Shown one piece after another: positions 1 to 14,991 of a stretch of 54,024 nt of DNA. The notes beneath the pieces were generated by a model. The model saw nothing but the letters and a program-made list of their open reading frames with translations. It searched no databases and was not told where the DNA came from. Position 1 is the stretch's first letter, and every line of letters begins with the position of its first letter. Location: positions 1 to 54,024 of the forward strand of contig CAIQIZ010000011.1 in assembly GCA_903872035.1 (NCBI GenBank). Direction: 5' to 3'. Source of the DNA: an uncultured bacterium. GTDB taxonomy: Bacteria > Patescibacteriota > Minisyncoccia > Phycocordibacterales > PALSA-1337. The position numbers and the translations under genes are program-made.

Positions 1-3000
1 AGGAACCGGTACTAGTGGCGAAATGCAATCCATCAGTTGAAGTGGCGGTGTAGAGAAGGATGGTAGAACCATTGTTTGCTGGAGCGTTGAAGTATATGGT
101 GGCTTGACTGTCGCCGCTAGAGACGGAAGTGATCGTAGGTGCATCGGGAATAGTTGCCGGCATGACAGAAATACTGGCCGCCGAAGGAGAGCTTGTCCCA
201 GTACTATTGGTCGCAGTAACGGTAAATGTATAGCTAGCACCATTATTCAAACCACTGATTGTGATCGGAGAAGTGGTGCCAGTCGCAGTCTGTCCCCCGC
301 TTGAGGTCACCACATATCGGATTATCGCAGAGCTTCCATTATCTACTGGTGGAGTAAATGTGATGGTCGCGCTATTGGAACCAGCAACAGCGACTATATT
401 CGTCGGTGGATTTGGGATATTTTGATAATTGAAATACGGATAAGTCGAAGCTTCAGCAATCTTCCAGATAAGCGAGGTGAAGTCCCAACCCGTATAAGTA
501 GCCTGGTGCTGCATGACTGGAGTAGTCGTTCCTGTCATGACTCCGATTCCTGAATTCATAAGATCAGTGAGTGCCGTTCCATCTTGGGCAACTGCTACAA
601 GCAAACCATTTCCATAAGCAACAGCATTCCATAAGCGAGCCGAAGCACTTGTCTGGCTCGTCCAAGTGATTCCATTCGGTGAAGTCATGATTTGAGTCGC
701 GACTGCTCCGTCATATGCGACTGCTACGAATAGCCCATTCCCAAATGTGACTGATGTCCACTGTCTGGCCGAAGGACTTGTCTGACTAAACCAGTTAACT
801 CCATCAGTAGAAGTCATGATCTGTGTCGCGACGGCTCCATCGTATGCGACTGCCACGAATATTCCATTTCCATACGTTACTGAACGCCATTGACGAGCTG
901 AAGGGCTTGTCTGACTGAACCAATTCACCATATCAGAAGATGTCATGATCTGATTGGCAGTAGTACCATCTTGAGCGACAGCCACGAACATACCATTACC
1001 GTATGTGACAGAACGCCATTGACGAGCTGAAGGGCTAGTCTGAATGAACCACTGTATTCCATCAGATGATGTCATGATCTGGCTTGTTGTCGCAGTGCTG
1101 GAAGCAACCGCCACAAAATATCCATTTCCATAAGTCACTGAGTACCACTGCAGTCCCGACGGACTAGTTTGGTTCGACCAATTGATCCCATTGGAAGATG
1201 TCATGATCTGGGTCGTAGTCGCGGTACTTGAGGCGACTGCTACGAATATTCCATTACCGAAAGTGATCGAGGACCATTGACTGGCAGACGGGCTGGTTCG
1301 AGCTAGCCATACCTGACCGTCGATCGACGTCATGATCTGGTTAGCCGTGGTACCATCCGATGCTACTGCCACGAAAATACCATTGCCATAAGCAACTGAA
1401 CGCCATTGACGGGCAGACGTGCTTGTCGCAACTGCCCAAGCAAAGCCTCCAGTAACTCCATTCAATTTTCCAGAATATGTAGCATCGAAATAATCTGAAA
1501 CATAGCTGCCACCCAATGAAGAACCTACCAAACCTCCGACATATTGTGTACCTGATCCGCCAAGTGTTCCTGCACCACCATTTGAACCACCTGTGCCACC
1601 AGTACCTTTTGCACCACCAGCGCCACCAGTAGCACCTGAAGTTTTTGTCCCACTAGGCGCTCCGATCGAATATGCATTTGTTACAGCTGAAGTGTTATTT
1701 GTTCCCAAAAGGCCGCCGACAAATGCATTGGCACCCGTTCCGCCGTTGCCGCCGGTCAAACCGTTCCCATTGGCACCATTACCTAAAGTTCCGGTTCCAC
1801 CATTTCCACCAGGGCCGCCAGGGCCTCCATTACCGGGAGTCCCTGCCGTCGAGCTGGCAGAACCAGTCGAATAAGCATTGGTAATGACACCTGTATTTTG
1901 TCCGACCAAACCTCCACCATAGACATCACCTCCGTTACCACCGTTACCGCCGGCAGATCCATCTCTTCCTGTGCCTCCAGTCCCAGAAGTTCCACCGGTA
2001 CCTCCAGCTCCACCTTGACCACCTGTCCCACCAACGACACCATTACCTCCGACCATGGTGACATTGCCAGATGAGTAGCTTGTGTTAAAACTTCCTGTCG
2101 TAAGGTTCGCCCCAATAAAACCTCCAGCATAGCTCGTTCCGCCAGCGCCACCATTGCTGCCACCGAGACTTGTTCCACCGTTGCCGCCGTTTTGATTGCT
2201 AGTGGTTCCAGCATCACCTCCTCTTCCTGCGGTACTGCTAGCTCCAGCTGTCCCACCATTACCTCCAACAGTATAAATATTTCCGGAAGACCAAGAATCT
2301 TGAACTATTCCAGCGGTGAAATTTTCTCCAAGAAAACCACCGGCAAATAGGTTACCGCCAGTTCCAGCCGCTGCAGTCGTATTCTCGTTACCACCCACTC
2401 CGCCAGCACCGGTCGGACCACCATCCCCACCTCTACCACCGTTGCCCCCAGCACCACCAGCACCACCGGTTCCACCATAGACATTCACATTTCCAATAGA
2501 ATAATCGGTGTAAAGCGTTCCAACGTTGTAGCCAACAAAACCTCCGGCGTATGCAATACCCCCAGCCGATCCTGCAGTCCTAACACCAGCCTGTCCGCCA
2601 GTTCCGCCAGCTCCACTTGCCTGACCATCTCCGCCCCTACCACCATCACCTCCCTCTCCGCCAGCTCCACCATTGCCGCCATACAAAGTCACCGTCCCAG
2701 TTGACCATGAATCCTTGATCGTTCTTCCTGATTCGTTTGCGCCAGCAAAACCTCCGGCATAGGCGTTTGTTCCTGCACCCGAAGCCGCAGCAGATCCTCC
2801 AGCACCACCGTTGGCTCCGGCACCGCCAGCACCCCCTACTCCACCTTGAGCTCCGATACCTCCCGCTCCACCAGCACCTCCTATTCCGGCTCTGCCAATG
2901 ACATTGCTAGTAGAATATGAATTTAAATATATTGTTCCATTATTATCTCCGACAAAACCGCCAACATATAGCGCGCCAGGAAGCGCTGCCACTGCTGAAC

Positions 3001-6000
3001 CGCCAGTAAATCCATCGCCGCCTTTTCCTGCCGTTCCTGGTAATCCTCCGTCACCTCCTTTACCGCCGTTACCACCATTACCGCTAGTAGCATCGATAGT
3101 CGTACCAGTGGCATAACTGGAAATAGTAGTACTGGCAGCGTTTTGGTTATAGCCGATAAGACCTCCGGAATAATTTGCTCCACCGATTCCACCAGTTCCA
3201 CCAGTGCCTCCAGGGCCTCCGATATGAGTGCTAGTTCCAGCTGACCCATCGCCACCCTTTCCACCTTCCCCGCCTGTGCCACCGTTTTGAGACACAGACA
3301 ATACCGAGCTATTTGCAAAGGAACTAATAATTATTCCTGTCGCTTCATTGTTACCGATGAGACCGCCAGCGTAAATAGCTCCACCGTTACCACCTGCTCC
3401 ACCATTACCACCAGAAGCTGCAGTACCTCCTGAAAGCGTTCCTGATATTCCTCCCGGACCTCCCTTTGCCGCAGTACCAACGCTGCCACTATAGGCAAAA
3501 ACATTTCCTGTAGCATAAGAAGTATCTTCTACAATACCAGTATTGTCTCCGACCAGTCCGCCGACATAGACTGCTCCACCGTTACCTGTCGCACCGCCGT
3601 TACCGCCAACTCCACCCTTCGCGCTAGTTACTCCTGGGCCGCCATGACCGCCGATAACTCCGATCTTTCCATCTCCCGATGTTCCTCCGGTTGCGTAAAC
3701 ATTAGCTGTCGAATAGCTACTGCTTATAGATAAGTTCATGCTTGCGGTTGAAACCGTCCTTCCAACCAAACCTCCTGCATAAGCAGCACCTCCGGCACCG
3801 CTTGTACCTGCTGCACCAGTCGCGCCTCCAGCGCTGTCCGTTCCTCCATAACCAGATGTTCCTGCAGTTCCTCCATCACCACCCTTACCTCCCATAGCAA
3901 TCACTGTATTGCTCAGCGAATATGAGTTCGTATAATTTCCTTCTCCAGCACTTGCCCCACCATAGCCAACCAGACCTCCGGCGTCTGCCTCACCACCAAT
4001 ACCACCGTTACCACCTATACCGCCGTTACCGCCAGCCGCAGTTGAAGTACCGTCAGCCCCGATGCCACCTGTATTTCCCATGCTGCCTCTGCCACCTAAG
4101 GCATAGACATTTCCCGTCGCGTATGAATTTAGAATATCGTTCACGCCTCCAGCCAAAGTCACCTTGTTGTTTCCAATGAGACCTCCAGCATAAGCGGCAC
4201 CTCCAGTTGAAACTGTAACAGCACCGCCTCCGTTAAGACCGGTTACGTTAGGGCGTGAAAGAGCAGCGTCGCCAGATTTTCCACCCGTTCCAGCATTTCC
4301 ACCAGTTGAAGTTGCGCTGACTGTAGCGAACACTCCGATGTAATCTATCTGTCCTGATGTAAGAGCGCTGTATCCAACCAAACCTCCAGCATCTGCTTCG
4401 CCACCGGCACCTGACTGTCCTCCGAGGACTGCCCCGGCAGCGACGTGACCGGAAACTCCCAAAAAGGCGCTTCCGGCTGCTCCAGCAGAGCCGCCATCGC
4501 CGCCATAACCTCCTTGAACAACGACATTTCCGGTTGCATATGAATTGACTATTTGCAGAATCGGACCAGTCGTTCCGCTTATGCGACCAACCAAACCTCC
4601 ACCATAGGCTGCGCCGCCAGCGTATCCAACAGCACCGGCAATACCTACAGCAGATGTTCCACCTGATACTGCTCCGGAAGCACCGCCAGATCCGCTATTT
4701 CCTCCTGTTCCACTTCCACCTCCAAAGACTTTTATGTTTATATTTGAATATGAACCTTGAATAGTTCCAGTAGTACCAGGAAGATAATCGCCGACAAGTC
4801 CGCCGATAGCACGGAGTCCGCCGTAACCTCCCGCTCCACCAATGACACCGATGCCTCCCATGCTCGACACTGAACCTGCACCGCCACTTCCACCATTACC
4901 ACCTTTGCCTCCCGGTTGTTCGGTTCCAGAAATCGTGATTCCATCCGAGAAAGATGAAGTGATGTTTCCGGAACTGAACCCAACGAGCCCACCAATAACC
5001 GCTCCGACCGCTCCGCTAGCCCCGCCTCCAGTTCCAGCCGCCGCCCCTCCCTGTCCGCCAGCGCTACCAACTAATAGTCCAGAACCACCATTACCAGCAT
5101 TTCCGCCTTTACCAGCCGAACCGCCATTCGCAACAATATTTCCTTCTCCAGTCGTTGAATCATAACCTGCATATGATGAGACAATGTCCGATGTCGTATA
5201 GCCTATGAGACCTCCTGCGTATATAGCACCTGGGGCACCGCCGTTTCCACCGTTCGAACCGGCCGTTCCGCTAGTTGATGTAGCTGTCCTTCCATCAGTT
5301 CCATCCATACCAGATCCGCCAGTGATATTGAGTGTTGTTGTAGAAAATGAATTGGTCTCAACGACTCCTGTTGTATATCCAACAAGACCACCTGCATATA
5401 TCTGCCCTCCAGCACCTCCAGCACCTCCAGCACCACCCAGACCATATATTGCTGCTGCCACGTTGACTGATCCTGCACCGCCTATTCCTCCAAAGGCCGA
5501 GGTTCCCCCTGACGCACCATTGATTGTTATTGTTCCACCTTTTGCATATGAACTAGTGACCGTCCCCAAAGTGATGCGACCTACTAGACCTCCGACTTGA
5601 ACAGCCGTGCCGGCACCAGTGGCTCCTGATCCACCAGCACCACCGACTCCACCGACTCCACCGATCTCGCTTGCACCAAGAGAGCCATCTCCACCATCGC
5701 CGCCTCTAGATCCAGCACCACCTGTACCGGCGATCACTGTTATATCAGTCGATGTAGCATATGAATTTCTTATGACCGCCAAGATCGTAGTATCTTCTCC
5801 GACCAGTCCACCGACGTTCATGAGTCCGCTCGCCCCTCCAGCGCCGCCTGTGCCTCCCTGACCAGCAGTAACCGCAGTCGTGCTTCCAGATTTTCCAGCT
5901 GCGCCTCCGATTCCACCAACACCGCCGTTGCCGCCGATAGCTTGAATGAATCCGGAATAATGATAACTGTTGTCTACAGTTCCAGTGAATTGACCGATGA

Positions 6001-9000
6001 GACCGCCAGTATAATTTGCTGCGCCAGCACCACCGATTATACCGTTACCTCCATCACCTCCTTTAAATCCGTATCCACCGGTGTTACCTGTTCCGCCGCT
6101 TCCTCCCACACCGCCAGTTCCAGAAGTTCCACTAACTATACTGGTCGAATATGAATCGACGACCAGGCCGATCGTTCCTATACCGATGAGTCCGCCGGTG
6201 TATGCTATGCCTCCAAGCGCAGTCGCGCCGCTACCTCCAGCACCTCCATTGCCCCCGATGGCGGCATTGCCAGCACCACCATCACCACCTTTTCCAGCCG
6301 ATCCAGCACTACCGGCAGTCGAGGATGCCATACCCATCGAATACGAGTCGCTCACCAAAATGTACGAGCTCGTGAGTCCGACCAAACCACCGACATAAGT
6401 GTAACCACCAAAACCTCCGACGCCCCCGGTTCCACCAAGACCTCCAGCCATCGATGCCGCCCCATCGCCACCAGTTGCTCCTTTTGCTCCCAAACCTCCC
6501 ATCTGTCCAATGACCATCACTGTACCGGTTGCATAAGAAAATCTGATAGTATCTCCAGCACCAGCCGCTGCTCCGATGAGCCCCCCGGCATAAGTGTAGG
6601 CTCCTGACGCTCCTCCAGCACCTCCAGCTCCGCCTGCTCCTCCTTGAGCTCCGATAGTTCCTGGAGTTGATGTCCCACCCGCTCCTCCGATACCCGCAGT
6701 AATGGACACATTGTTAGTCGAATATATAGTATCGAAAAGAATATAGTTTGATCCGCTATAACCAACCGCGCCTCCAGCGTAGCTCGCACCGGTGACACCA
6801 CCGTTACCACCAGTTCCACCTGTGCCGTTCTTACCAGCACCTCCACCACCGACTCCACCATTTCCACCAGTACCTCCTATGCCGCCACTCGAACCTGAAA
6901 CGATGGTGATATTTCCTCCGATCGCATGTGATAAAGAAATATTTCCGTTACCCTGACCTGCCAAACCTCCAAGGTATATGACGCCACCGTTTCCACCGTT
7001 TCCACCAGTGCCTGCGACCCCTCCATTGAAGCCAGCCAAGCCTCCGCTTCCACCATCGCCACCGTTACCACCATTACCCCCGTTTCTTCCGCTGGCAGAT
7101 ATACTTCCGATAACTTCCGAATTCAATATTACTCCTGGATTATCTCCAGCCAACCCTCCAACCAAAGTCGTTCCACCAATACCTCCAGCTCCACCACTAC
7201 CTGCCTGACCTCCAGTTCCTACTGAAACGCTTCCCGTCGTAGACCCCGCATTTCCACCTCTTGCACCATTACCTCCCCAGCCACCGATGACATTTATAGA
7301 TGTAATAGTGTAATGAATATCTCTGATGATCCCAGTATTTGATCCGGCGATACCACCTCCATAATCAGCCCCTCCGTTACCTCCGGCTCCGCCCGTGCCA
7401 CCACCTCCACCAGCAGCTCCGGTTCCTGCTCCACCAACTCCACCGATACCACCATCACCTCCGCTTCCTCCAGTTGAATTAATCCAACCAAGATTATTTG
7501 CATTTATTATCGTAGTCCCCAACACTCCGTTATATCCCATGACTCCTCCGACATATGCAGCTCCGCCGATTCCACCAGCACCACCCGCGATACCTCCAAC
7601 TCCCGTACCGCTCGTTCCTGCAGCACCGCTTGCGCCGCCTGCTCCACCATTTCCAGCGCGACCGCCAGTAGAAGAAGCATCGCCTGTCGCAAATGTATCA
7701 TCGCTGACCAGAGCCAAGCTGTAACCGACCAAACCTCCAGCGGAAGCCACGCCACCAGTTCCACCTATTCCACCCTGTATACCCACAATGCCAGCATTTC
7801 CATTTGTTGAGTTTCCGCTCGCCGCTCCTGTCGTCCCATCTCCACCTCTACCTCCCGTAGCATAAGCATCTCCCGAAGCATGAGATCCCCCTTGGATATT
7901 TCCACCAGCCGCATTGTATCCGAGAAGCCCACCGGAATATGCTGCGCCACCAGTTCGAGAAGTTATATTCCCAGCCGTATCTCCCAAACCATTTGCGCCT
8001 CCTGTAAATCCCAAACCTCCACTAACCACTCCATTTCCTCCTTTGCCACCAGAGCCAGGCATGCCTCCATAACCTCCTGTTGAAGATGCTATACCTGTAG
8101 CATATGAATTATTGATTATTCCATTGCTGTAAGCTACCAAACCTCCAGCATATGCGGCGGCCGGTGCTGAAACTGCTCCACCCGCTCCTCCGGCAGCTCC
8201 CAAACCACCAGCTCCACCAACCCCACCATTACCAGAACCTCCACCGATCGCACTGACTGAGACCAGAGCAAAAGAATTCTGCACAACTCCATTCTGGGTA
8301 CCGCTCGTAAAATTGTTTCCAACGATACCTCCTGCATATGCAATGTTCCCAGCAGCTCCCGCTCCACCGATTCCACCCTGACCTCCAGCCGATCCAGTTC
8401 CTCCCACACCTCCGTCACCACCGTTGACTCCATTTCCTCCAGCGCTTCCAACTGCCAGAACTGAACCTAGTCCGATATTCGCATTAGTGATCGTCGTGAC
8501 GCTCTGTCCAGCTATGCCTCCGGCATATGCGATCGCCCCAGCTCCACCAGCGCCACCAGTTGCTCCAGCCGCACCAAGGTGACCAAGGCTACCGAACGCA
8601 CCGCTTCCAGCAATTCCAGCTGCAGCTCCATTTTTACCTGCTGATGCCACAGCTATGACCGTACTAGAAGCGTAAACATTTGTGATTGCGTTCGTGGTAT
8701 CTCCGGCGATTCCACCCGCGAAAGCCGCCGCACCAGCTCCACCAGTTCCTCCAGTCTGACCAGCAGCCGCAGTTCCAGTGCTTATCGTTGAAGTGCTGTT
8801 CCCGCCATTGCCGCCATAACCAGCATCACCGGCGATCCCAGCAAAGGCCGAAACATTTCCCAACATGAGCGATGTCGAAATCGATGTGATCACTCCAGCA
8901 TTTCTTCCGACAAATCCCCCAGCATAAGCGACTCCTCCCTGACCTCCATTACCTCCGGTTCCCGAAGCGCCTCCAGCAAATCCAGTTCCACCATTTTTTC

Positions 9001-12000
9001 CACCATCGCCACCGGACCCGCCTCTGCCTCCGTTACCTCCAGCTCCGCCCGAGACTGTCGTGCTAGCCGTAGATGAGGCATTGGAGAGGGTGCCGATGAT
9101 AAATTTTCCAATGATCCCACCTCCATCGGCTTCACCTCCGGTCCCACCGTTCTGTCCTAGCTGTCCAGCACCCCCAGTCGTAGTCGTACCGTTAGCTCCA
9201 TTGCCTCCGGTTCCGCCGATTCCTCCCATACCGGCATTTACGATAATATTTCCTGCAGAATATGCATTGAGAATATCTCCAGCATTCTGATAACCAACTA
9301 TTCCAGCCACGTAAGCAACACCACCGTTAGCACCGGCAGTTCCGGCAGTACCAGCCATACCAAGGATCCCATCTATCCCATTGGCTCCGGCGCCTCCGGC
9401 TCCGGATGTGCCGATAACATCGCCGATAGAATACACATTTGTGAGTATTCCTCCAGAAGAACCAACTGTGCCATCAGCACCGGTAATTCCACCCTCATAA
9501 ATAATCGCGCCAACGGTTGCCGTTCCACCAGGACCAGCCAGACCGCTTCCGCTTCCAGCACCTCCTGCTCCAGCGGCACCTCCAGCTCCAGCGGTTCCAT
9601 TTATTGCTCCAGTCATATGATAGCTATCAGTGATGAGAAGCGTGTTGTTACCAGCAACTCCTCCGACGTAGATTACTCCTCCGGCGCCACCAGTACCACC
9701 GCCGGCCGCAGTCAAATTCGCCCGACCAGCTGCTCCGTTACCACCCGCGCCTCCAGCCCCAGCAGTTGCTGATATAGCGTTCGTAGAAAATGAATACTGG
9801 ATAGTTCCAATGTTGCTACCAGCTAGCCCGCCAGCGTATGAGTTAGCGATCGTAGCATTGTTACCTGCACCGCCATTTCCTGTAGTTCCAGCTGCACCAC
9901 TCAGACCGCTCGTTGCCAGACCACCAAGCCCACCCGTTCCTCCGATACCACCGATTCCACCATGTAAGTAAATCAATCCGGTTGTTGAATAGGCAGAAAC
10001 GATCAACCCAGAATTTTGTCCTGCAATACCGCCGACCAAGGCTGTTCCTCCAGTTCCTCCAGCAGCGGCGGCATCAGCACCGCCGGCTCCTCCACCCGTT
10101 GCACCAGAACCGCCGATGCCTCCAGCTCCAGCGATTTTTCCATCTGCTCCAGTGGCAGAGACAGAACCTATAGAATATACCTGACCAGCAGTGCCGTTAA
10201 TTATTCCACCCGTTCCATTTTGAGCAACGATGCCTCCAGCGTAAGCCACACCTCCAGCACCGCCGCTTCCACCATTACCGCCAGCCGCCGTATTATTTCC
10301 AGGACTCGTGCTAGCATTCCCTCCCGCAGATCCAACAGTAGCTATTCCGCCAAATGATTGGATGGTCCCGGTTGCAAAAGATCCCGCTTCGATCACGGCA
10401 TTATTTACTCCGACCAAACCGCCGGCATATGAGAAACCTCCAGCGCCACCAGCCGCTCCGTTCCCACCAATACCAGAAATCGATGGGAGAGTTCCTCCGG
10501 CACCACCATTTCCAGCGAGACCTGCCGCCCCTCCAACACCTCCGATAGCTGTGACATTTCCTTCGGAATTTGAGGCTGTTATAGTTCCGGAATTTGTCCA
10601 GCCGACCAAACCTCCGGTATAGCTTACCCCGCCGGCGCCCGGCACTCCAACTGCTCCGCCGGCGCCTCCAATACCTGTCCCTAGAGTGTATCCGCCTTCA
10701 CCGCCGTTACCGCTGGCTCCACCTGTTCCTCCTATTCCCATGACCATAGCAGTCGAACATGAATTTGTAATATTGCCTTGTTGGAAGAATCCAACCAAGC
10801 CCCCAACGTAAACCGTACCACCAAGAGCCGCCGCATTGCTGACAGAAAGCCCTCCGGCTCCGGCCGTACTAGCACCGCTTGCTATCCACCCTCCTTTGCC
10901 TCCATAACCTCCCAAACCTCCTGTTCCACCCATACCGATGATGCTTCCAGAAACATTCACATTTGTGATCAGTCCGGAATTATAAGCGACTAGACCTCCG
11001 ACATACAAAGTCCCACCCGCCCCACCAGCTGTCGGAGTAGTCGTTCCATTGGCGTTTGCTGAAGCTGTTACTGTTCCACCCATTACCCCGTCGTTGCCGT
11101 TCACTCCTGCTGTTCCAGGAGTACTGGTAGCATTGATAGAAATATTTGAAAGAGTGACATTTCTGATTTGACTGACAGAATATCCGAATAGTCCGACATA
11201 GCTCGATGAAGTCGTCGAAATATAAAGATTGCTTATCTTATACCCACCACCATCAAAATCGCCAGTGAAGTTTGTTGTGGCATTTCCGATAGGGATGAAT
11301 CCGGTGTTCTGATTCCACGCGGTCGTGGATGCGGCATCGATGTCGTTAAACAATTTGAACGAGCTCGTCAAGCTAGTCCTCATTGCCTGCAAACCGTAAA
11401 CATCATAGATCATGAACGGATCAGCGCTTATGCCTGTGCCAGTGTATCGACGAAATGTCCCGGCATTCAGGGCGAAGTTACCTGCCGCAGAAAAAGTGTT
11501 TACAGCAGGATTCATAGCAGTGAATGTGGCCGCTGATGTTTCCACAAAGTTACCGGATTGCCCACTAGTATTGACTATGAAAAGAGGTGCGTTCTGGACG
11601 ATTGTCCCCGTATATCCAGTCGAAGTTCCAATAGTAAACGAACCGACCGTCGTGGTCGCATTGATAGTCACGATTGAAGCACCCGTGCCTGAAAAGTTAT
11701 CGAAAAAGACGCTGGTATTAGGACCTGGCAGGTTCCCACTTCTAGCTATGCCATTCGACGAAGTAGCCCAATGGTTCGTATCATCAGACCAGTTTCCAGT
11801 CCCATTGACCCAGTAAGCGATATTCGGAGCTGGGTCGACGACATAGTCTATGTCGGTGTTCCCAATGATCTTCAGATCAAAAACTGCCGTCGGAATCAAG
11901 AGATCTGTGAGCAATATCCGATATTTGCCATCCTGGTCGATCTGGAAAGTGGCCTGGAGCGGACTGCCTTCGGTAGTATTTCCTAGAGCATCAGTGTAGA

Positions 12001-13207
12001 CAGGATATACCTGTATGGATGTCGGTCCTGACCCAACATGAGGCCGCGCATAGATAGTGATATCGTTCGAACTCTCCAGCCCCCTATCAAAAGTGACTCG
12101 AACATACTGCCCATCAGCCAGATCCGCAAAATTCTGATCCAGCATTCCGACAAGATCGAAAATATCGCCAATAGCATTCAAGTTAGAATCCAACTGCAAA
12201 GCGTTTGAAATATAAATTATTTGAAATGTTTGCGTCGACAAGTGCGGCACGATCCAACCAACGTGGTCGATAAATCCATTACCATCGTCATCATAAGCAA
12301 CGAATTGCATGTCGGCGCTCCCGTTGTTCTGCCATTTGATCTTGATCTTATCTTCTTCACCGACTTTGTATATTTCCGGTATAGCGATGCGAACAGGAAC
12401 ATCGATCATCGGCTGTACTGCTTCCTGCTCATCCGTCGCCGAGATAGTCACCAGTTTTCCATTCGCAGTCTCTTGCTCGACAATTTTTGGAGGTGTTGTC
12501 GTCGCCACCGATTCAGTAGTCGAGGCCGTTGATGTCGCTAACTGTTCGGTAGTCGAAGCAGTGATAGTGATAGCTGTTGTTGAAGCGGTAGTCCCTATTG
12601 AAGAGGTCGCCACTAGCAAAGTTGTGCTCGCTTGTGGGAGAGTAGTTGTCCCTTGAAGATTCGTGCCACCACTTGAACCACCGACTGAAGTTGGTTCTGT
12701 TGTCGAAGCTGTCGATGTAGAAGTTTCGCCTGGATTCGTAGACGATGCAAAAGAAGTTGTTGAGGAAGCCGTATATGAAGAAGTGGAGGTCGCAAATTCC
12801 GGAAAAGTTGATCCCGAGCCTGTTCCTGGATTTACAGGTTCTATGACAGGGGCTGCAGAAGACGCATTCGTTGATTCTGATGTCGAAGCGACTGATCCTG
12901 ATGATTGCGCATTTCCATCTGATGACGATGGTGACACAGTCGGCGACGGTGAGGTCGATGGTGTCGGCGTAGGATCTGGAGCAACACTGACCGACGGTGT
13001 CGGCGTAGGGACACTTGATGGTGAAGCTGATGGAGTTGCTGACTGAACATCAGGAGAGACTGATGGAGAAACTGCGCTTTCTACCGGTGGAGCCACTGCG
13101 GCATCCCCCGAAGCAACGTCGTCAGCGAGTGCTATGCGAGAGGAACCGACGAGAAGAAGCACGACCAAAATTAAGTTCACACCTAGACGAAAGGTTCGGG
13201 CCATCAT
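1..13207 (-). CDS. Giant secreted/surface protein (>4400 aa, 3' end outside window): signal peptide, S/T/P stalk, GLUG-repeat solenoid with Gly-rich inserts, 7-repeat beta-propeller, Fn3 domains
   Basis: Manual translation from ATG at 13207 gives MMARTFRLGVNLILVVLLLVGSSRIALA. The same frame reads through most of the region, e.g. DHVGWIVPHLSTQTF (~12250), FTGDFDGGGYKISNL (~11250), repeated YAGGLVG...NSYATG, QWRSVTYGNG repeats and PDAPTITSVSSGDSQATIYFNAP (~100). The short minus-strand ORFs in the track all sit in one shifted frame, consistent with a single open frame lacking a stop in the window. Confidence 0.93.
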   Translation of the reverse strand, partial: MMARTFRLGVNLILVVLLLVGSSRIALADDVASGDAAVAPPVESAVSPSVSPDVQSATPSASPSSVPTPTPSVSVAPDPTPTPSTSPSPTVSPSSSDGNAQSSGSVASTSESTNASSAAPVIEPVNPGTGSGSTFPEFATSTSSYTASSTTSFASSTNPGETSTSTASTTEPTSVGGSSGGTNLQGTTTLPQASTTLLVATSSIGTTASTTAITITASTTEQLATSTASTTESVATTTPPKIVEQETANGKLVTISATDEQEAVQPMIDVPVRIAIPEIYKVGEEDKIKIKWQNNGSADMQFVAYDDDGNGFIDHVGWIVPHLSTQTFQIIYISNALQLDSNLNAIGDIFDLVGMLDQNFADLADGQYVRVTFDRGLESSNDITIYARPHVGSGPTSIQVYPVYTDALGNTTEGSPLQATFQIDQDGKYRILLTDLLIPTAVFDLKIIGNTDIDYVVDPAPNIAYWVNGTGNWSDDTNHWATSSNGIARSGNLPGPNTSVFFDNFSGTGASIVTINATTTVGSFTIGTSTGYTGTIVQNAPLFIVNTSGQSGNFVETSAATFTAMNPAVNTFSAAGNFALNAGTFRRYTGTGISADPFMIYDVYGLQAMRTSLTSSFKLFNDIDAASTTAWNQNTGFIPIGNATTNFTGDFDGGGYKISNLYISTTSSSYVGLFGYSVSQIRNVTLSNISINATSTPGTAGVNGNDGVMGGTVTASANANGTTTPTAGGAGGTLYVGGLVAYNSGLITNVNVSGSIIGMGGTGGLGGYGGKGGWIASGASTAGAGGLSVSNAAALGGTVYVGGLVGFFQQGNITNSCSTAMVMGIGGTGGASGNGGEGGYTLGTGIGGAGGAVGVPGAGGVSYTGGLVGWTNSGTITASNSEGNVTAIGGVGGAAGLAGNGGAGGTLPSISGIGGNGAAGGAGGFSYAGGLVGVNNAVIEAGSFATGTIQSFGGIATVGSAGGNASTSPGNNTAAGGNGGSGGAGGVAYAGGIVAQNGTGGIINGTAGQVYSIGSVSATGADGKIAGAGGIGGSGATGGGAGGADAAAAGGTGGTALVGGIAGQNSGLIVSAYSTTGLIYLHGGIGGIGGTGGLGGLATSGLSGAAGTTGNGGAGNNATIANSYAGGLAGSNIGTIQYSFSTNAISATAGAGGAGGNGAAGRANLTAAGGGTGGAGGVIYVGGVAGNNTLLITDSYHMTGAINGTAGAGGAAGAGGAGSGSGLAGPGGTATVGAIIYEGGITGADGTVGSSGGILTNVYSIGDVIGTSGAGGAGANGIDGILGMAGTAGTAGANGGVAYVAGIVGYQNAGDILNAYSAGNIIVNAGMGGIGGTGGNGANGTTTTGGAGQLGQNGGTGGEADGGGIIGKFIIGTLSNASSTASTTVSGGAGGNGGRGGSGGDGGKNGGTGFAGGASGTGGNGGQGGVAYAGGFVGRNAGVITSISTSLMLGNVSAFAGIAGDAGYGGNGGNSTSTISTGTAAAGQTGGTGGAGAAAFAGGIAGDTTNAITNVYASSTVIAVASAGKNGAAAGIAGSGAFGSLGHLGAAGATGGAGGAGAIAYAGGIAGQSVTTITNANIGLGSVLAVGSAGGNGVNGGDGGVGGTGSAGGQGGIGGAGAAGNIAYAGGIVGNNFTSGTQNGVVQNSFALVSVSAIGGGSGNGGVGGAGGLGAAGGAGGAVSAPAAAYAGGLVAYSNGIINNSYATGIASSTGGYGGMPGSGGKGGNGVVSGGLGFTGGANGLGDTAGNITSRTGGAAYSGGLLGYNAAGGNIQGGSHASGDAYATGGRGGDGTTGAASGNSTNGNAGIVGIQGGIGGTGGVASAGGLVGYSLALVSDDTFATGDASSTGGRAGNGGAGGASGAAGTSGTGVGGIAGGAGGIGGAAYVGGVMGYNGVLGTTIINANNLGWINSTGGSGGDGGIGGVGGAGTGAAGGGGGTGGAGGNGGADYGGGIAGSNTGIIRDIHYTITSINVIGGWGGNGARGGNAGSTTGSVSVGTGGQAGSGGAGGIGGTTLVGGLAGDNPGVILNSEVIGSISASGRNGGNGGNGGDGGSGGLAGFNGGVAGTGGNGGNGGVIYLGGLAGQGNGNISLSHAIGGNITIVSGSSGGIGGTGGNGGVGGGGAGKNGTGGTGGNGGVTGASYAGGAVGYSGSNYILFDTIYSTNNVSITAGIGGAGGTSTPGTIGAQGGAGGAGGAGGASGAYTYAGGLIGAAAGAGDTIRFSYATGTVMVIGQMGGLGAKGATGGDGAASMAGGLGGTGGVGGFGGYTYVGGLVGLTSSYILVSDSYSMGMASSTAGSAGSAGKGGDGGAGNAAIGGNGGAGGSGATALGGIAYTGGLIGIGTIGLVVDSYSTSIVSGTSGTGGVGGSGGTGNTGGYGFKGGDGGNGIIGGAGAANYTGGLIGQFTGTVDNSYHYSGFIQAIGGNGGVGGIGGAAGKSGSTTAVTAGQGGTGGAGGASGLMNVGGLVGEDTTILAVIRNSYATSTDITVIAGTGGAGSRGGDGGDGSLGASEIGGVGGVGGAGGSGATGAGTAVQVGGLVGRITLGTVTSSYAKGGTITINGASGGTSAFGGIGGAGSVNVAAAIYGLGGAGGAGGAGGQIYAGGLVGYTTGVVETNSFSTTTLNITGGSGMDGTDGRTATSTSGTAGSNGGNGGAPGAIYAGGLIGYTTSDIVSSYAGYDSTTGEGNIVANGGSAGKGGNAGNGGSGLLVGSAGGQGGAAAGTGGGASGAVGAVIGGLVGFSSGNITSSFSDGITISGTEQPGGKGGNGGSGGAGSVSSMGGIGVIGGAGGYGGLRAIGGLVGDYLPGTTGTIQGSYSNINIKVFGGGSGTGGNSGSGGASGAVSGGTSAVGIAGAVGYAGGAAYGGGLVGRISGTTGPILQIVNSYATGNVVVQGGYGGDGGSAGAAGSAFLGVSGHVAAGAVLGGQSGAGGEADAGGLVGYSALTSGQIDYIGVFATVSATSTGGNAGTGGKSGDAALSRPNVTGLNGGGAVTVSTGGAAYAGGLIGNNKVTLAGGVNDILNSYATGNVYALGGRGSMGNTGGIGADGTSTAAGGNGGIGGNGGIGGEADAGGLVGYGGASAGEGNYTNSYSLSNTVIAMGGKGGDGGTAGTSGYGGTDSAGGATGAAGTSGAGGAAYAGGLVGRTVSTASMNLSISSSYSTANVYATGGTSGDGKIGVIGGHGGPGVTSAKGGVGGNGGATGNGGAVYVGGLVGDNTGIVEDTSYATGNVFAYSGSVGTAAKGGPGGISGTLSGGTAASGGNGGAGGNGGAIYAGGLIGNNEATGIIISSFANSSVLSVSQNGGTGGEGGKGGDGSAGTSTHIGGPGGTGGTGGIGGANYSGGLIGYNQNAASTTISSYATGTTIDATSGNGGNGGKGGDGGLPGTAGKGGDGFTGGSAVAALPGALYVGGFVGDNNGTIYLNSYSTSNVIGRAGIGGAGGAGGIGAQGGVGGAGGAGANGGAGGSAAASGAGTNAYAGGFAGANESGRTIKDSWSTGTVTLYGGNGGAGGEGGDGGRGGDGQASGAGGTGGQAGVRTAGSAGGIAYAGGFVGYNVGTLYTDYSIGNVNVYGGTGGAGGAGGNGGRGGDGGPTGAGGVGGNENTTAAAGTGGNLFAGGFLGENFTAGIVQDSWSSGNIYTVGGNGGTAGASSTAGRGGDAGTTSNQNGGNGGTSLGGSNGGAGGTSYAGGFIGANLTTGSFNTSYSSGNVTMVGGNGVVGGTGGQGGAGGTGGTSGTGGTGRDGSAGGNGGNGGDVYGGGLVGQNTGVITNAYSTGSASSTAGTPGNGGPGGPGGNGGTGTLGNGANGNGLTGGNGGTGANAFVGGLLGTNNTSAVTNAYSIGAPSGTKTSGATGGAGGAKGTGGTGGSNGGAGTLGGSGTQYVGGLVGSSLGGSYVSDYFDATYSGKLNGVTGGFAWAVATSTSARQWRSVAYGNGIFVAVASDGTTANQIMTSIDGQVWLARTSPSASQWSSITFGNGIFVAVASSTATTTQIMTSSNGINWSNQTSPSGLQWYSVTYGNGYFVAVASSTATTSQIMTSSDGIQWFIQTSPSARQWRSVTYGNGMFVAVAQDGTTANQIMTSSDMVNWFSQTSPSARQWRSVTYGNGIFVAVAYDGAVATQIMTSTDGVNWFSQTSPSARQWTSVTFGNGLFVAVAYDGAVATQIMTSPNGITWTSQTSASARLWNAVAYGNGLLVAVAQDGTALTDLMNSGIGVMTGTTTPVMQHQATYTGWDFTSLIWKIAEASTYPYFNYQNIPNPPTNIVAVAGSNSATITFTPPVDNGSSAIIRYVVTSSGGQTATGTTSPITISGLNNGASYTFTVTATNSTGTSSPSAASISVMPATIPDAPTITSVSSGDSQATIYFNAPANNGSTILLYTATSTDGLHFATSTGS
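570..1440 (-). repeat. Seven 43-aa (129-nt) repeats, predicted beta-propeller blades
   Basis: Consensus QWRSVTYGNGxFVAVAxDGxxxxQIMTSxDGxxWxxQTSPSAR; GNG codons near 1385, 1255, 1125, 997, 868, 739 and 610. Confidence 0.85.
1500..11100 (-). repeat. About 49 protein-level tandem units (~66 aa): GLUG-type core plus glycine-rich (GGX)n insert
   Basis: Hand count of [YF]xGG[LIF][VIA]G-like cores from ~10990 to ~1535 gives 49, average spacing ~197 nt; DNA between units is diverged. Confidence 0.85.
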
Positions 13208-13896
13208 TTGATACAATTTTATCAAGATATCATGACCGTGCATAGCGAAAATACACAGTAAATGTAAGCGTAATTTGAGCATTCCAATCAGACAGAGTAT
13301 TATCGAAAATCGGGTGACTTTAAGCACCTTCGCCTTACAAATTTACCCCGTAATTCAAGCAAAATGAGTGATAGAAATCAGGCCAAATCGACAAACTACG
13401 TATATATATTGTACAAATATTTTCTATTTCAAAATTGGTGACCTTTATAAACCTTAATAGTCTTTAATAGTTAATTGGAATACCACGGCTAACTTTCGTC
13501 CTCACCGTTTATGCACAAAATTTCTATGCGGTTGGCGGTCTCGAGTATTTCAATCGACGTTCTGAACAGCTTGAATCATGTAGGTCCTTCCGGAAGACAT
13601 GTTCAACCTTGTTCTAAATGAAGCGCCCAAGCAACTATGGTCAACGTCTCTACTCCCCACCGATCAACGGGCTCTGCAGTTATCCACACCAGTCTGTTCA
13701 AAATGTCCAAAAAAGCACATAAAATTTCCCTGACATTCATTTGACTACTTAACATTGATTTGCTTCAAACAATTACGACCAAGTTGACATCGGTAATTAT
13801 TGTGGTAATGTCAGCGACGGATTGTTATAAATATGCAATTCCATTGCCTGCCATATAAATTGACTGGCACATGAAAATACAGAAAGACAGGGTTCT

Positions 13897-14991
13897 ATGA
13901 AAAAGAAACAGATCGATCAGACACCACCACAAACACAGCCGCCCGCCAAAGCACCGCCAGCGCAACCGTGTTTCCATCCCAGCATCGAGGGTGCCCAGCA
14001 CGGGCCAAAGTCGCTTTTGGAGTTTCTCGATTACGCCAAGATGTCCGGAGCCGTCGGCGCGCAACCGTCCAACTTTCATTGCCAAAAGAAAGATGGGCGA
14101 CTCATGAACGCGAAGGAGGTCAAAGAAGCCTTCGACATAGCCGAACTCCGGCTCGACGGTATTTCCGCTCACTGCCCTTTCTGGGTGCACACTACTGCCT
14201 GGACCGGCAGCCCCACCATCCGACCTTTCATTCCGGCCGATGTGGCCAAATTGTCGCCGCAAGCAATCGAGAAGTGGGCCGAGAAATATATCCTCAAGCT
14301 ACTCGATCTCTGTGCCGAGCTCGGCGTCAAGATCATCCCGATGTTCTGGGGAGTCGCCTTCGGCTGGGAGGTCGCCACCGGATACCCATGGGGCTTCTGG
14401 GGTAGCGACGATTACAACCTTATCGTGGAAGGCAAGGAGCGCTTCGTGACGAAGACAGCCAAGATCCGCCGACATGCCAATTCGAACGGCCAGTCGCTCG
14501 CTCACGAGATCCACCCCGGCACCGGAGCCATGTGCGCCGACGATTTCCTGGAATTGGTCGCGATCTGCCAGGGCGACAAATGCCTGACCGTCAATGCCGA
14601 TCCCTCTCACTGCTGGGAAGGTGAGGACTGGGAAACTCGGTTCCTCAAGGTCGGCCACCGCATCTGCGCTTGCCATATCAAGAACTTCGTCATCCGTCGG
14701 GGCCTGCCCCTTCGCATGATGGAGCCAGCTTGGCAAAAGCGCGCCATGCAATTCGTGGACTTGCCGACAGGCCAAATCAACCTAGCTCGCTACGTCGAAC
14801 TCCTCATCCATGTCGGTTATCCTCAGCGTTACTGTATGCTGACAGGTGCCAAGACCGCTCCGCTTATCGTCGAAGCCGAGAGCGCTTACCGCGACCTGGA
14901 CGCCACCAGCGCCAATGGCATCCAATACGTGCTCAATAACCTCTGCTTCCCTATCGCCACCGGTTCCTTTGAAGACGGCATGGGCGCATAG
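13897..14991 (+). CDS. Sugar phosphate isomerase/epimerase-like TIM-barrel protein (xylose isomerase-like/AP endonuclease 2 fold)
   Basis: 364-aa ORF with AHEIHPG, NADPSHC, CHIKN and IVEAE metal-ligand-like motifs; followed by a terminator. Confidence 0.75.
   Translation: MKKKQIDQTPPQTQPPAKAPPAQPCFHPSIEGAQHGPKSLLEFLDYAKMSGAVGAQPSNFHCQKKDGRLMNAKEVKEAFDIAELRLDGISAHCPFWVHTTAWTGSPTIRPFIPADVAKLSPQAIEKWAEKYILKLLDLCAELGVKIIPMFWGVAFGWEVATGYPWGFWGSDDYNLIVEGKERFVTKTAKIRRHANSNGQSLAHEIHPGTGAMCADDFLELVAICQGDKCLTVNADPSHCWEGEDWETRFLKVGHRICACHIKNFVIRRGLPLRMMEPAWQKRAMQFVDLPTGQINLARYVELLIHVGYPQRYCMLTGAKTAPLIVEAESAYRDLDATSANGIQYVLNNLCFPIATGSFEDGMGA

What the first reader, a model, noticed from the sequence alone, without database searches (positions are those of the whole stretch)
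1..13207. Hidden giant (>4400 aa) secreted protein missed by the ORF track
Seen: one minus-strand frame from ATG 13207 runs past the window edge, and the small ORFs called here are antisense or shifted-frame shadows of it. The order is signal peptide, ~210-aa S/T/P stalk, a globular domain with an EF-hand-like DDDGNGFID loop (~12267-12293), a YWVNGTGNWSD...HW motif, the GLUG region, a propeller and Fn3 domains. Inference: a very large adhesin or surface filament, a big investment for a presumably reduced genome, possibly for host attachment.
Basis: partly seen in the sequence, partly recalled or inferred. Interest (0 to 1): 0.8.

Follow-up and report, generated by a model that had tools for sequence, protein, structure and literature searches.

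The report
Giant glycine-rich surface fibre gene
The window really does hold most of a gene for a protein of about 5,000 or more residues, a conserved surface fibre of tiny candidate-phyla-radiation bacteria with a fixed-length glycine-rich rod of unusual predicted design that is probably docked to a membrane anchor encoded next door.

Summary
The minus-strand frame from ATG 13207 runs 4402 codons without a stop to the contig end. Contigs of four public runs reproduce it with no indels.

It is not an orphan. Eleven full-length orthologues of 5025-6438 aa occur in other Patescibacteria (CPR) genomes.

Shared order: signal peptide, low-complexity linker, conserved about 200-aa head, GLUG cap, 47-49 repeats of about 65 aa, C-cap, fn3 array, Ig-like domain, type I dockerin.

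The cap-to-cap span is 3279-3321 aa in 12 of 12 proteins. Repeats are positionally orthologous.

An AlphaFold model of six repeats (pLDDT 72.5) matches a solved GLUG beta-helix (Z 14.9). It also matches a springtail antifreeze polyproline-II bundle (Z 14.6, rmsd 1.3 A).

The missing C-terminus is very probably on contig C23: fn3, Ig-like domain, dockerin.

A cohesin-like membrane protein lies directly downstream there and in 10 of 11 orthologous genomes.

Only this genome has a seven-bladed propeller inserted in the C-cap.

Adhesive function is inferred. Verdict: new variant of a known kind; interest 0.6.

The parts
2..13207 (-). Giant ORF, 4402 codons from ATG 13207, open at the contig end (3' part of the gene missing)
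   Evidence: reproduced without indels in contigs of 4 runs
13124..13207 (-). Signal peptide, aa 1-28 (basic n-region, hydrophobic core, A-L-A before DD)
   Evidence: Read from the sequence. Orthologues have the same build with A-x-A sites. No signal-peptide predictor was available.
12422..13123 (-). Low-complexity S/T/P/A linker, aa 29-262
   Evidence: Composition: S 22%, T 21%, A 12%, P 11%. No Pfam hit. The G001 orthologue has an acidic E/P/V-rich linker instead.
11816..12421 (-). Conserved N-terminal head, aa 263-464: a small beta subdomain with the DxDxNGxxD loop, then a jelly-roll (CBM-like) sandwich
   Evidence: 45-55% identity to 12 other large proteins, always in their N-terminal part. 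52 invariant columns. AF2 model pLDDT 70.1. Model residues 79-209 match CBM-type jelly rolls at Z 7.3-9.2, which is middling. No Pfam or NCBIfam family.
12266..12292 (-). DDDGNGFID loop (calcium-loop-like)
   Evidence: D52, G57 and D60 invariant in 13 of 13 aligned sequences. Calcium binding was not tested.
11456..11815 (-). Lead-in with YWVNGTGNWSD...HW motif, aa 465-584
   Evidence: The same W..G.G.WS...NW lead-in precedes each GLUG module in P0002-P0006 and occurs in P0007.
11006..11455 (-). GLUG N-cap (FRRYTGTG...PFMIYDVYGLQAM...DIDA...VGLFG) and one degenerate repeat, aa 585-734
   Evidence: Homologous to the cap of giant proteins that carry PF07581/PF05342, E 8e-109 to 6e-75. Degenerate repeat 670-734 scores 7.2 bits.
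1493..11005 (-). Rod: 49 repeats of 56-74 aa (median about 65) plus a last partial rung, aa 735-3905; 35% Gly
   Evidence: Own repeat HMM. Gly period-3 autocorrelation 1.66, 1.52, 1.45 at lags 3, 6, 9. AF2 model of six repeats and its structural matches. Positional orthology with the L090 repeats.
1406..1492 (-). First half of the GLUG C-cap (YFDATYSG...), aa 3906-3934
539..1405 (-). Seven-bladed propeller-like insert, 7 x 43 aa, aa 3935-4223
   Evidence: Pfam EPTP 63.2 bits against cut-off 21. Blade register. Blade motif absent from 11 of 11 orthologues. Not found in 60 genomes of the same family with this query. Fold not modelled.
422..538 (-). Second half of the GLUG C-cap (MTGTTT...TYTGWDFTSLIWKIAEASTYPYF), aa 4224-4262
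   Evidence: The uninterrupted version is seen in the G001 orthologue.
2..421 (-). fn3 domain 1 and the start of fn3 domain 2, cut by the contig end
   Evidence: Pfam fn3 42.2 bits. The last 141 nt sit at 2.3-3.9x the depth of the rest in 4 runs, which points to a collapsed repeat.

Best explanation
The window holds the first 4402 residues of a Sec-secreted cell-surface fibre. The fibre family is conserved in Patescibacteria (CPR), where full-length members are 5025-6438 aa.

**Shown by calls**
- The order of parts, N to C: signal peptide; low-complexity linker; a conserved head of about 200 aa with a calcium-loop-like DxDxNGxxD motif; a GLUG lead-in and cap; 49 repeats of about 65 aa; the GLUG C-cap; fn3 domains.
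- The cap-to-cap length is nearly constant across 12 proteins, and the repeats are positionally orthologous.
- In this genome alone, a seven-bladed propeller-like module is inserted into the C-cap.

**Predicted**
- Part of the head is a jelly-roll, CBM-like sandwich.
- Each repeat adds one rung to a right-handed GLUG beta-helix and about two polyglycine-II (polyproline-II type) helices to a two-layer sheet packed alongside it.
- With the usual rung rise of about 0.48 nm (recalled), this gives a stiff rod of roughly 24 nm.

**Inferred**
- The missing C-terminus is the 549-aa open frame at the start of contig C23: four or more fn3, an Ig-like domain, a Gly linker and a type I dockerin.
- The dockerin binds the cohesin-like domain of the single-pass membrane protein encoded 22 bp downstream. 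This tethers the C-terminus to the cell, so that the fn3 array, propeller and rod hold the N-terminal head away from the surface.
- The head, and perhaps the propeller, bind a glycan or surface on a host cell or particle.
For: **ORF and reproducibility:**

**Family**
- A scan with the N-domain profile found 203 confirmed stretches in species-representative genomes. The 76 loci kept carry almost only CPR labels.
- 30 of those 76 loci have ORFs with at least 19% Gly and GLUG/(GGX)n motifs.
- 11 full genes were fetched, 5025-6438 aa.

**Fixed rod**
- The N-cap to C-cap distance is 3279-3321 aa in 12 of 12 proteins, with 47-49 repeats detected in each. The fn3 motif count varies from 11 to 27.
- 37 of 48 repeats find their best match in the same-position repeat of the G001 orthologue. 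Three more do so with a 41-42 aa offset. Best-match identity is 0.48-0.71, against about 0.43 to other repeats.

**Fold**
- AF2 model of aa 3143-3552: pLDDT 72.5, pTM 0.75.
- VIA-align matches:
  - 3n6z_A, a Bacteroides GLUG beta-helix: Z 14.9, rmsd 2.5 A over 170 aa
  - IgA1 proteases 7uvk and 7jgj: Z 14.3 and 14.1
  - 7jjv_B, a nine-PPII-helix antifreeze protein: Z 14.6, rmsd 1.3 A, 123 of 126 aa
  - 2pne: Z 7.9, 77 of 81 aa
- Gly shows period 3 in the rod.
- 29 of 30 nearest Atlas clusters share one family set; in the three listed, 17-32% of members carry Glug.

**Join with C23**
- C23 is the only other fn3-bearing place in the genome found with this query, at 61% identity.
- Its Ig-like and dockerin tail matches the C-terminus of the single-ORF orthologue in a complete chromosome.

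**Anchor**
- Dockerin: 40.7 bits against a cut-off of 22.9. Its profile finds solved type I dockerins at 2e-10.
- A cohesin-like gene with a transmembrane helix lies directly downstream in this genome and in 10 of 11 orthologous genomes.
- 6 of 12 members of that family match Pfam Cohesin.
Against: **Fold**
- It rests on one model of moderate confidence, built from an 8-row alignment of the protein's own repeats. The five models range from pLDDT 56.8 to 72.5.
- Foldseek gave only weak matches, with TM at most 0.11.
- Pfam Glug is below its cut-off on both pieces that matched.

**Anchor**
- The C23 cohesin-like ORF does not itself match Pfam Cohesin.
- Its family profile finds no solved structure by sequence.

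**Join:** C11 and C23 share no overlapping bases, so the join is by synteny only. The number of fn3 copies in between is unknown.

**Head:** its jelly-roll matches are middling (Z 7.3-9.2).

**Function and topology**
- No expression, localisation or binding data were obtained.
- A 230-aa low-complexity tail at the supposedly distal end is unexplained.

**Distribution:** it is patchy. The N-domain was found in 2 of 60 other genomes of the same family.
Confidence: 0.6

Rival explanations
1. Reversed or double attachment. The conserved N-terminal head binds the cell's own wall or envelope. The dockerin end is then distal, or is also cell-bound, so the protein lies along the surface as an envelope or lattice component rather than projecting as a fibre.
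For: - The head is the conserved part in a wider set of large CPR proteins whose downstream parts differ. This is the pattern expected of an anchoring module.
- Its jelly-roll part resembles carbohydrate-binding modules, which could bind peptidoglycan.
- Relatives P0007 and P0008 begin with a charged stretch followed by a hydrophobic helix, which looks like a membrane anchor.
Against: - This protein and all 10 orthologues with a full N-terminus have short signal peptides with A-x-A sites.
- The cohesin-like partner carries the transmembrane helix.
- P0008 also ends in a C-terminal hydrophobic helix, which again puts the C-terminus at the membrane.
Confidence: 0.15
2. The glycine-rich face of the rod is itself the functional surface: a long flat polyglycine-II sheet that binds ice or another periodic lattice (mineral, S-layer, polysaccharide), as in springtail antifreeze proteins. 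The fibre would then hold the cell to that surface.
For: - The best non-GLUG structural match is a springtail antifreeze protein: Z 14.6, rmsd 1.3 A, 38% identity.
- The runs that hold the DNA are freshwater and lake-water metagenomes.
- The conserved length and positional orthology of the repeats show selection on the rod itself.
Against: - Similarity to antifreeze proteins follows from any (GGX)n bundle and shows no function.
- The same fold is a passive scaffold in other proteins, according to the passages read in 10.1101/2023.11.25.568672 and PMC13243192.
- Nothing is known about the temperature of the habitats.
Confidence: 0.07
3. It is an enzyme-bearing protein like the streptococcal IgA1/Zmp proteases, in which a GLUG beta-helix accompanies an M26 peptidase. 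The fibre would deliver a hydrolase to a host.
For: - There is a weak match to Peptidase_M26_N: 12.4 bits against a cut-off of 27.7.
- IgA1 proteases are among the best structural matches, at Z 14.1-14.3.
Against: - No peptidase or other catalytic family was found in the whole ORF, in its eight pieces or in the C23 fragment.
- The matches to the proteases cover only their beta-helix part, chain residues 869-1068 and 1112-1311.
- The unassembled gap could hide a domain. However, the single-ORF G001 orthologue shows only fn3 repeats in the parts I read on either side of the equivalent stretch, and 27 fn3 motifs in all.
Confidence: 0.03
4. It is an assembly artefact or a decaying pseudogene: a chimeric contig, or an open frame kept open only by biased composition.
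For: The contig ends inside a repeat, and the glycine-rich DNA is repetitive.
Against: - 13.2 kb without a stop.
- Identical sequence without indels in contigs of four runs.
- Eleven colinear orthologues with the same rod length.
- Position-specific conservation of the repeats.
Confidence: 0.02

Closest known systems
GLUG-motif beta-helix modules (Pfam PF07581, with PF05342 Peptidase_M26_N), as in giant 'GLUG motif-containing' proteins and the helical domain of IgA1 proteases (PDB 3n6z, 7jgj, 7uvk)
   Same: - The same N-cap sequence module and the same C-cap motif.
- The model superposes on solved GLUG beta-helices at Z 14.1-14.9.
- The rung motif is the same: Y-x-G-G-L-V-G-x-N-x-G-x-I-x-N-S-Y-A-T-G.
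   Different: - The period is about 65 aa, against the 20-30 aa rungs seen in P0002-P0006. The extra ~40 aa are (GGX)n.
- There is one module of 49 rungs, not many modules of 5-10.
- Pfam Glug stays below its cut-off.
- There is no peptidase domain.
- A propeller is inserted in the C-cap.
Glycine-rich polyproline-II (polyglycine-II) helical bundles: springtail and snow-flea antifreeze proteins (7jjv, 2pne), phage S16 gp38 tip, Obg N-domain, and the AlphaFold-predicted PE_PGRS 'sails' of mycobacteria
   Same: - (GGX)n runs with period-3 glycine.
- The model matches 7jjv at rmsd 1.3 A over 123 of 126 residues.
- Like PE_PGRS, it would be a bacterial surface protein with a two-layer sheet of such helices. 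This comparison rests on passages of PMC13243192 read.
   Different: - Here the helices are interleaved, about two per repeat, with the rungs of a beta-helix in one chain.
- About 98 helices would be predicted. Passages read show a nine-helix antifreeze bundle and a 27-helix PE_PGRS33 model.
- No experimental structure exists.
- The lists of known bundles come from passages only. Tables and supplements were not seen.
Cohesin-dockerin anchoring of extracellular proteins (cellulosome type; type I dockerin, PF00404, PF00963)
   Same: - A C-terminal duplicated calcium-loop dockerin: Pfam 40.7 bits. Its profile matches solved cellulosomal dockerins.
- A partner gene with a cohesin-like domain and a membrane anchor lies next to it.
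   Different: - The cargo is a fibre of about 5000-6400 aa, not an enzyme.
- The anchor is a single-pass membrane protein with a conserved cytoplasmic tail. This differs from a wall-bound scaffoldin (recalled).
- The cohesin assignment is marginal for this genome's own copy.
- Binding was not tested.
Giant surface proteins of ultrasmall bacteria, e.g. the 'Dockerin-type' giant proteins of Omnitrophota (bioRxiv 10.1101/2023.11.21.568195; passages read)
   Same: A very large secreted protein in a small genome, with calcium-binding dockerin-type repeats, beta-helical predicted regions and a proposed attachment role.
   Different: - Those proteins are 30,000 aa or more, with many dockerin and thrombospondin repeats and enzymatic domains.
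- 'GLUG' and 'glycine' occur 0 times in that text.
- No sequence relation was tested.

Membership tests
GLUG beta-helix module (PF07581 / PF05342-type) | Pfam Glug model above its gathering score | tested here: not met
   16.4 and 19.9 bits against a cut-off of 20.5 on two 500-aa pieces; no hit on a third piece or on the whole ORF.
GLUG beta-helix module (PF07581 / PF05342-type) | N-cap and C-cap sequence modules shared with proteins that carry PF07581 | tested here: met
   E 8e-109 to 6e-75 to P0002-P0006, which have precomputed PF07581/PF05342. The cap motifs were read. The C-cap is split by the insert.
GLUG beta-helix module (PF07581 / PF05342-type) | Right-handed beta-helix fold like solved GLUG domains | tested here: met
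   On a predicted model only: 3n6z_A Z 14.9, rmsd 2.5 A, 170 aa; 7uvk Z 14.3; 7jgj Z 14.1. The next unrelated beta-helices score Z 9.1 or less.
GLUG beta-helix module (PF07581 / PF05342-type) | Rung length of one short GLUG repeat (about 20-30 aa) | tested here: not met
   The period is 56-74 aa, median about 65, in this protein and in 11 orthologues.
Glycine-rich PPII/PGII helical bundle | (GGX)n segments with glycine at period 3 | tested here: met
   82 runs of (GGX) repeated two or more times. Autocorrelation is 1.66, 1.52, 1.45 and 1.27 at lags 3, 6, 9 and 12, and below 1 at all other lags up to 11.
Glycine-rich PPII/PGII helical bundle | Packed PPII helices superposable on solved bundles | tested here: met
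   On a predicted model only: 7jjv_B Z 14.6, rmsd 1.3 A, 123 of 126 aa; 2pne_A Z 7.9, 77 of 81 aa.
Glycine-rich PPII/PGII helical bundle | Experimental PPII signature (CD, NMR or crystal) | not testable with these tools
   No experimental data.
Type I dockerin / cohesin pair | Dockerin domain above the Pfam cut-off at the C-terminus | tested here: met
   On contig C23, not in the window: 40.7 bits against 22.9 and 35.9 bits in the genome search. The profile of 11 orthologues matches 1daq at 2.1e-10.
Type I dockerin / cohesin pair | Partner with a cohesin domain | tested here: inconclusive
   - The C23 ORF 1672-2691 has no Pfam hit of its own.
- 6 of 12 family members match Cohesin, best E 1.3e-6.
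- The paralogue on C15 scores 24.1-27.4 bits against a cut-off of 24.1.
- The family profile finds no solved chain.
Type I dockerin / cohesin pair | Calcium-dependent binding of the two domains | not testable with these tools
   Needs a binding assay.
EPTP-type seven-bladed beta-propeller (PF03736) | Pfam model above its cut-off, and seven blades | tested here: met
   63.2 bits against 21. Seven units of exactly 43 aa. The fold itself was not modelled, and there is no meaningful solved relative by sequence.
Fibronectin type III | Pfam fn3 above its cut-off | tested here: met
   42.2 bits in the window. 132.8 bits with 4 stretches on C23.
M26 IgA1-specific metalloprotease | Catalytic peptidase domain | tested here: not met
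   No peptidase family in the ORF, its pieces or C23. Only a weak Peptidase_M26_N match at 12.4 bits against 27.7.

The most novel reading that the evidence does not exclude
The rod is a protein architecture not yet described. It is a single chain in which 49 beta-helix rungs alternate with pairs of polyglycine-II helices. This would build a beta-helix with a continuous two-layer polyglycine-II sheet of about 98 helices along its side.

Its length is held constant across distant CPR lineages. That would make it a molecular spacer of about 24 nm, setting the distance between an ultrasmall cell and whatever its tip binds.

The whole fibre would be plugged into the membrane through a dedicated cohesin-dockerin pair whose anchor has a conserved cytoplasmic tail.
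Probability: 0.35. Interest if true: 0.75.

Novelty: new variant of a known kind. Interest (0 to 1): 0.6.

Why it matters
CPR bacteria are thought to live attached to other cells, yet few of their attachment structures are known. This gene, with its probable C23 end, takes at least 14.9 kb, or 1.4% of a 1.05-Mb genome.

Three features make it a concrete, testable candidate for a host-contact fibre:
- It belongs to a family whose rod length is conserved to within about 1% over 12 proteins, while the fn3 stalk varies from 11 to 27 motifs.
- It has a defined anchor gene next to it.
- It has a defined tip domain.

For structural biology, the predicted union of a beta-helix with a very long polyglycine-II sheet would extend a rare fold class well beyond the bundles mentioned in the passages I read. 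A six-repeat fragment is a tractable target.

The lineage-specific propeller inside the C-cap is an example of domain insertion into a solenoid cap.

Tried and rejected
**Searches that gave nothing usable**
- Homologue search with the repeats (aa 3143-3900): none of 1700 candidates reached E 1e-3. This says nothing about absence, because orthologues were later found through the N-domain.
- Exhaustive representative search with aa 3280-4402: 41325 hits. The top 150 are propeller or fn3 proteins, and 0 of 150 have five or more GLUG-like or (GGX)3 motifs. It gave no information on the rod.
- PDB sequence search with the propeller: only a designed ThreeFoil (3.4e-7) and antibody chains, which are not meaningful.
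- Cohesin-like profile against PDB sequences: 0 matches.
- NCBIfam on 8 pieces: nothing above any cut-off.

**Alignments and folds set aside**
- Self-alignment of 43 overlapping six-repeat windows (A1): MAFFT aligned the overlaps, not the register. I replaced it with 8 non-overlapping windows (A2).
- Foldseek on the rod model: one match at E 1e-3 or better (7jjv), all TM at most 0.11. I used VIA-align instead.
- Foldseek on the head model: no match at E 1e-3 or better.
- MAFFT alignment of the C-caps mis-anchored the short orthologue segments onto the last blades. The insertion is instead read from motif spacing: 332 aa here, against 34-37 aa in the 5 of 11 orthologues where both motif patterns matched.

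**Complex prediction**
- Cohesin-like aa 32-180 with dockerin aa 20-85 and 2 Ca: scores 0.18 and 0.14, mark 0.32. No verdict.

**Join, reads and context**
- Exact end overlap between C11 and any contig: none.
- Sequencing runs: no RNA holder listed.
- Low-depth joints with sides of 20-23 letters in the laid contigs were taken as repeats or other organisms.
- Synteny of the upstream genes (PMT, GT2, the 1042-aa ORF and others) in 23 orthologous loci: PMT 0 of 23; only single hits for GAF, GatA and ORF192. I dropped the idea that the neighbouring O-mannosyltransferase is a dedicated partner.

**Literature**
- Five searches and passages of three papers gave no description of this family or of a GLUG/PPII composite.
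- Supplements and tables were not seen and might list such proteins.
Full report
**1. The observation**

The minus-strand frame 2..13327 has no stop in 4442 codons and runs off the first base of the window. That base is also the first base of contig C11, in a 31-contig, 1.05-Mb genome scored 100% complete.

This looks like a Sec signal peptide by its charge, hydrophobic core and A-x-A site. I read that from the sequence; no predictor was available. No Shine-Dalgarno sequence stands before it.

All other ORFs of 100 aa or more inside 1-13207 are at most 161 aa. The strong negative GC skew of the plus strand (-0.27 to -0.39 between 2 and 10 kb) fits the glycine codons of the minus strand.

Contigs of four public freshwater or lake runs from three studies reproduce the stretch without any indel. 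One contig of 22355 nt matches 112-14000 with 0 differences. These runs may be the source samples. In all four runs the last 141 nt of the contig have 2.3-3.9 times the depth of the rest. The contig therefore ends in a collapsed repeat, the fn3 array.

**2. Anatomy inside the window** (aa counted from the ATG)

| aa | Part | Evidence |
|---|---|---|
| 1-28 | signal peptide | |
| 29-262 | S/T/P/A-rich linker | |
| 263-464 | conserved head with the DDDGNGFID loop at 12266-12292 | |
| 465-584 | lead-in with YWVNGTGNWSD...HW | |
| 585-734 | GLUG N-cap and one degenerate repeat | |
| 735-3888 | 49 repeats of 56-74 aa, then a last partial rung | |
| 3906 onward | first half of the GLUG C-cap (YFDATYSG) | |
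| 3935-4223 | seven units of exactly 43 aa, Pfam EPTP 63.2 bits against 21 | |
| 4224-4262 | second half of the C-cap (...TYTGWDFTSLIWKIAEASTYPYF) | |
| from 4263 | fn3 | |

Pfam Glug reaches only 16.4 and 19.9 bits against a cut-off of 20.5.

**3. Relatives**

A search with aa 255-760 found two kinds of large proteins.
- Giant proteins with precomputed Glug/M26_N domains share the lead-in and cap.
- Twelve proteins of 2436-3906 aa share only the head, at 45-55% identity. In each it lies in the N-terminal part (residues 148-690), followed by different domains.

A profile of the head found 203 confirmed stretches among species-representative genomes. The 76 loci kept carry almost only CPR labels. 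In 30 of those 76 loci the ORF has at least 19% glycine and GLUG/(GGX)n motifs.

I fetched eleven full genes, one of them from a complete 977-kb chromosome. They are single ORFs of 5025-6438 aa with the same order of parts. After the C-cap they carry 11-27 fn3 motifs, an Ig-like domain, a poly-Gly linker and a dockerin.

**4. A rod of fixed length**

The distance from the N-cap motif to the C-cap motif is 3279-3321 aa in 12 of 12 proteins. Each has 47-49 repeats by my HMM, and the median period is 65-66 aa.

The repeats are not homogenised.
- 37 of 48 repeats of this protein have their best match at the same position in the G001 orthologue.
- Three more do so with a 41-42 aa offset.
- Best-match identity is 0.48-0.71, about 0.43 to other repeats and 0.416 on average within the protein.

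So the array is old and position-specific, and its length is under constraint. The fn3 array is not.

**5. Predicted fold of the rod**

An AlphaFold2 model of six repeats (aa 3143-3552) was built with an alignment of eight non-overlapping six-repeat stretches of the same protein. It gave pLDDT 72.5 and pTM 0.75.

VIA-align against 48161 chains gave four matches well above the rest:

| Chain | What it is | Z | Fit |
|---|---|---|---|
| 3n6z_A | Bacteroides 'putative IgA1 protease' GLUG beta-helix | 14.9 | rmsd 2.5 A, 170 aa spread over model 1-369 |
| 7jjv_B | nine-helix polyproline-II antifreeze protein | 14.6 | rmsd 1.3 A, 123 of 126 aa, model 118-404 |
| 7uvk | IgA1 protease | 14.3 | - |
| 7jgj | IgA1 protease | 14.1 | - |

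Ordinary beta-helices follow at Z 9.1 or below.

Both partial matches span several repeats. That implies about 28 residues per repeat in a beta-helix rung and about 28 in two PPII-type helices. Glycine recurs at period 3. The nearest Atlas clusters are unnamed fragments partly carrying Glug.

With a 0.48-nm rise per rung (recalled), 50 rungs give about 24 nm. The 0.48-nm lattice of polyglycine II (recalled) would let one helix per layer stack per rung. This paragraph is prediction and inference.

**6. The head**

The model (pLDDT 70.1) shows a small N-terminal beta part with the conserved loop; D, G and D are invariant in 13 of 13 sequences. From model residue 79 to 209 there is a jelly roll. 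Its best matches are carbohydrate-binding modules and phage tail parts at Z 7.3-9.2, which is a middling level.

**7. The missing end and the anchor**

Among all contig ends, only C23 starts with an open frame of fn3 repeats. That frame (549 aa) continues into an Ig-like domain, a G10 linker and a type I dockerin (40.7 bits). C23 is the only other place in the genome matching this protein's fn3. Its last ~230 aa parallel the C-terminus of the single-ORF orthologue motif for motif. There is no base overlap, and the depth data suggest further fn3 copies in between.

A 339-aa ORF starts 22 bp after the C23 stop. It has a signal peptide, a cohesin-like domain, an S/T/P linker, one transmembrane helix and a charged cytoplasmic tail. 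Homologues of this ORF lie directly downstream of the giant gene in 10 of 11 orthologous genomes; in the eleventh the contig ends.

Six of 12 family members match Pfam Cohesin. This genome's copy does not on its own.

The genome has a second, paralogous set on C15: an fn3-dockerin protein and two cohesin-like membrane proteins.

**8. The propeller is an insertion**

The two C-cap motifs are 34-37 aa apart in the five orthologues where both patterns matched. Here they are 332 aa apart. The blade motif is absent from 11 of 11 orthologues. The cap-propeller query found nothing at E 1e-10 or better in 60 other genomes of the same family. Related propellers are common in other large proteins.

**9. 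Distribution**

In the window's own family, the head was found in 2 of 60 other genomes, at 53% identity in frames of 831 and 1147 aa. The giant orthologues at 57-67% identity carry labels of several other CPR lineages. Transfer or repeated loss could explain this. I did not test it with a tree.

**10. Reading**

The best-supported account is a secreted fibre tethered by its C-terminal dockerin to a membrane-anchored cohesin-like protein. An fn3 stalk of variable length, a rigid rod of fixed length and a conserved N-terminal head would project outward. A role in attachment is inferred from the architecture and from the lifestyle of cultivated CPR bacteria, as stated in the abstract of 10.1101/2024.11.25.624915 (seen only in the listing).

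I saw no print description of this family in five literature searches. Passages of three papers place it beside known glycine-rich PPII bundles and other giant proteins, but not among them.

Noticed in passing
G000 contig C15 (L002, 3' end) and contig C2 (L003:2-10687): A second giant gene is split over two contig ends: 3654 aa open at the end of C15 and 3562 aa open at the start of C2. It is full of 'GNVGIGTTSP'-type repeats. There was no Pfam or NCBIfam family above cut-off on the pieces scanned. With the finding's gene, giant genes take at least 3.4% of the genome.
   Followed up: partly
L007 (G000:C15) 161-5697: A paralogous surface-protein cluster. It holds a secreted 224-aa protein, a 308-aa protein with a C-terminal transmembrane helix, a 497-aa fn3 + dockerin protein, and two cohesin-like proteins with C-terminal transmembrane helices.
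   Followed up: partly
L001:1672-2691 and orthologues in L091-L103: The cohesin-like anchor proteins share a conserved charged cytoplasmic tail (..SKEEKEIKEAIE.DLDEVD.. in orthologues). This hints at an intracellular partner.
   Followed up: no
window 19647-21807 (-): A protein O-mannosyltransferase (PMT 149 bits, PMT_4TMC 152 bits) and a GT2 glycosyltransferase lie 6.4 kb upstream of the giant gene, whose linker is rich in S and T. They are not syntenic with the giant gene in any of 23 orthologous loci.
   Followed up: yes
window 15636-18764 (-): A 1042-aa ORF upstream of the giant gene on the same strand has no Pfam family.
   Followed up: no
G000 contigs C8 and C9, ends: Both contigs end in near-identical transposase-like ORFs of 298 and 300 aa. 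This is a repeated insertion sequence that breaks the assembly.
   Followed up: no
L016; G002:C1:91773-97599: One orthologue ORF stops after 3143 aa. In G002 the fn3 array is cut into frames of 93-856 aa, with two stops in one match. These could be shorter variants, decay or sequencing errors.
   Followed up: no
P0021 (3458 aa, labelled GLUG motif-containing protein, Gallionella): Near its C-terminal GLUG module, a few rungs carry short GGxGG inserts like those of this rod. This may be an intermediate form.
   Followed up: no
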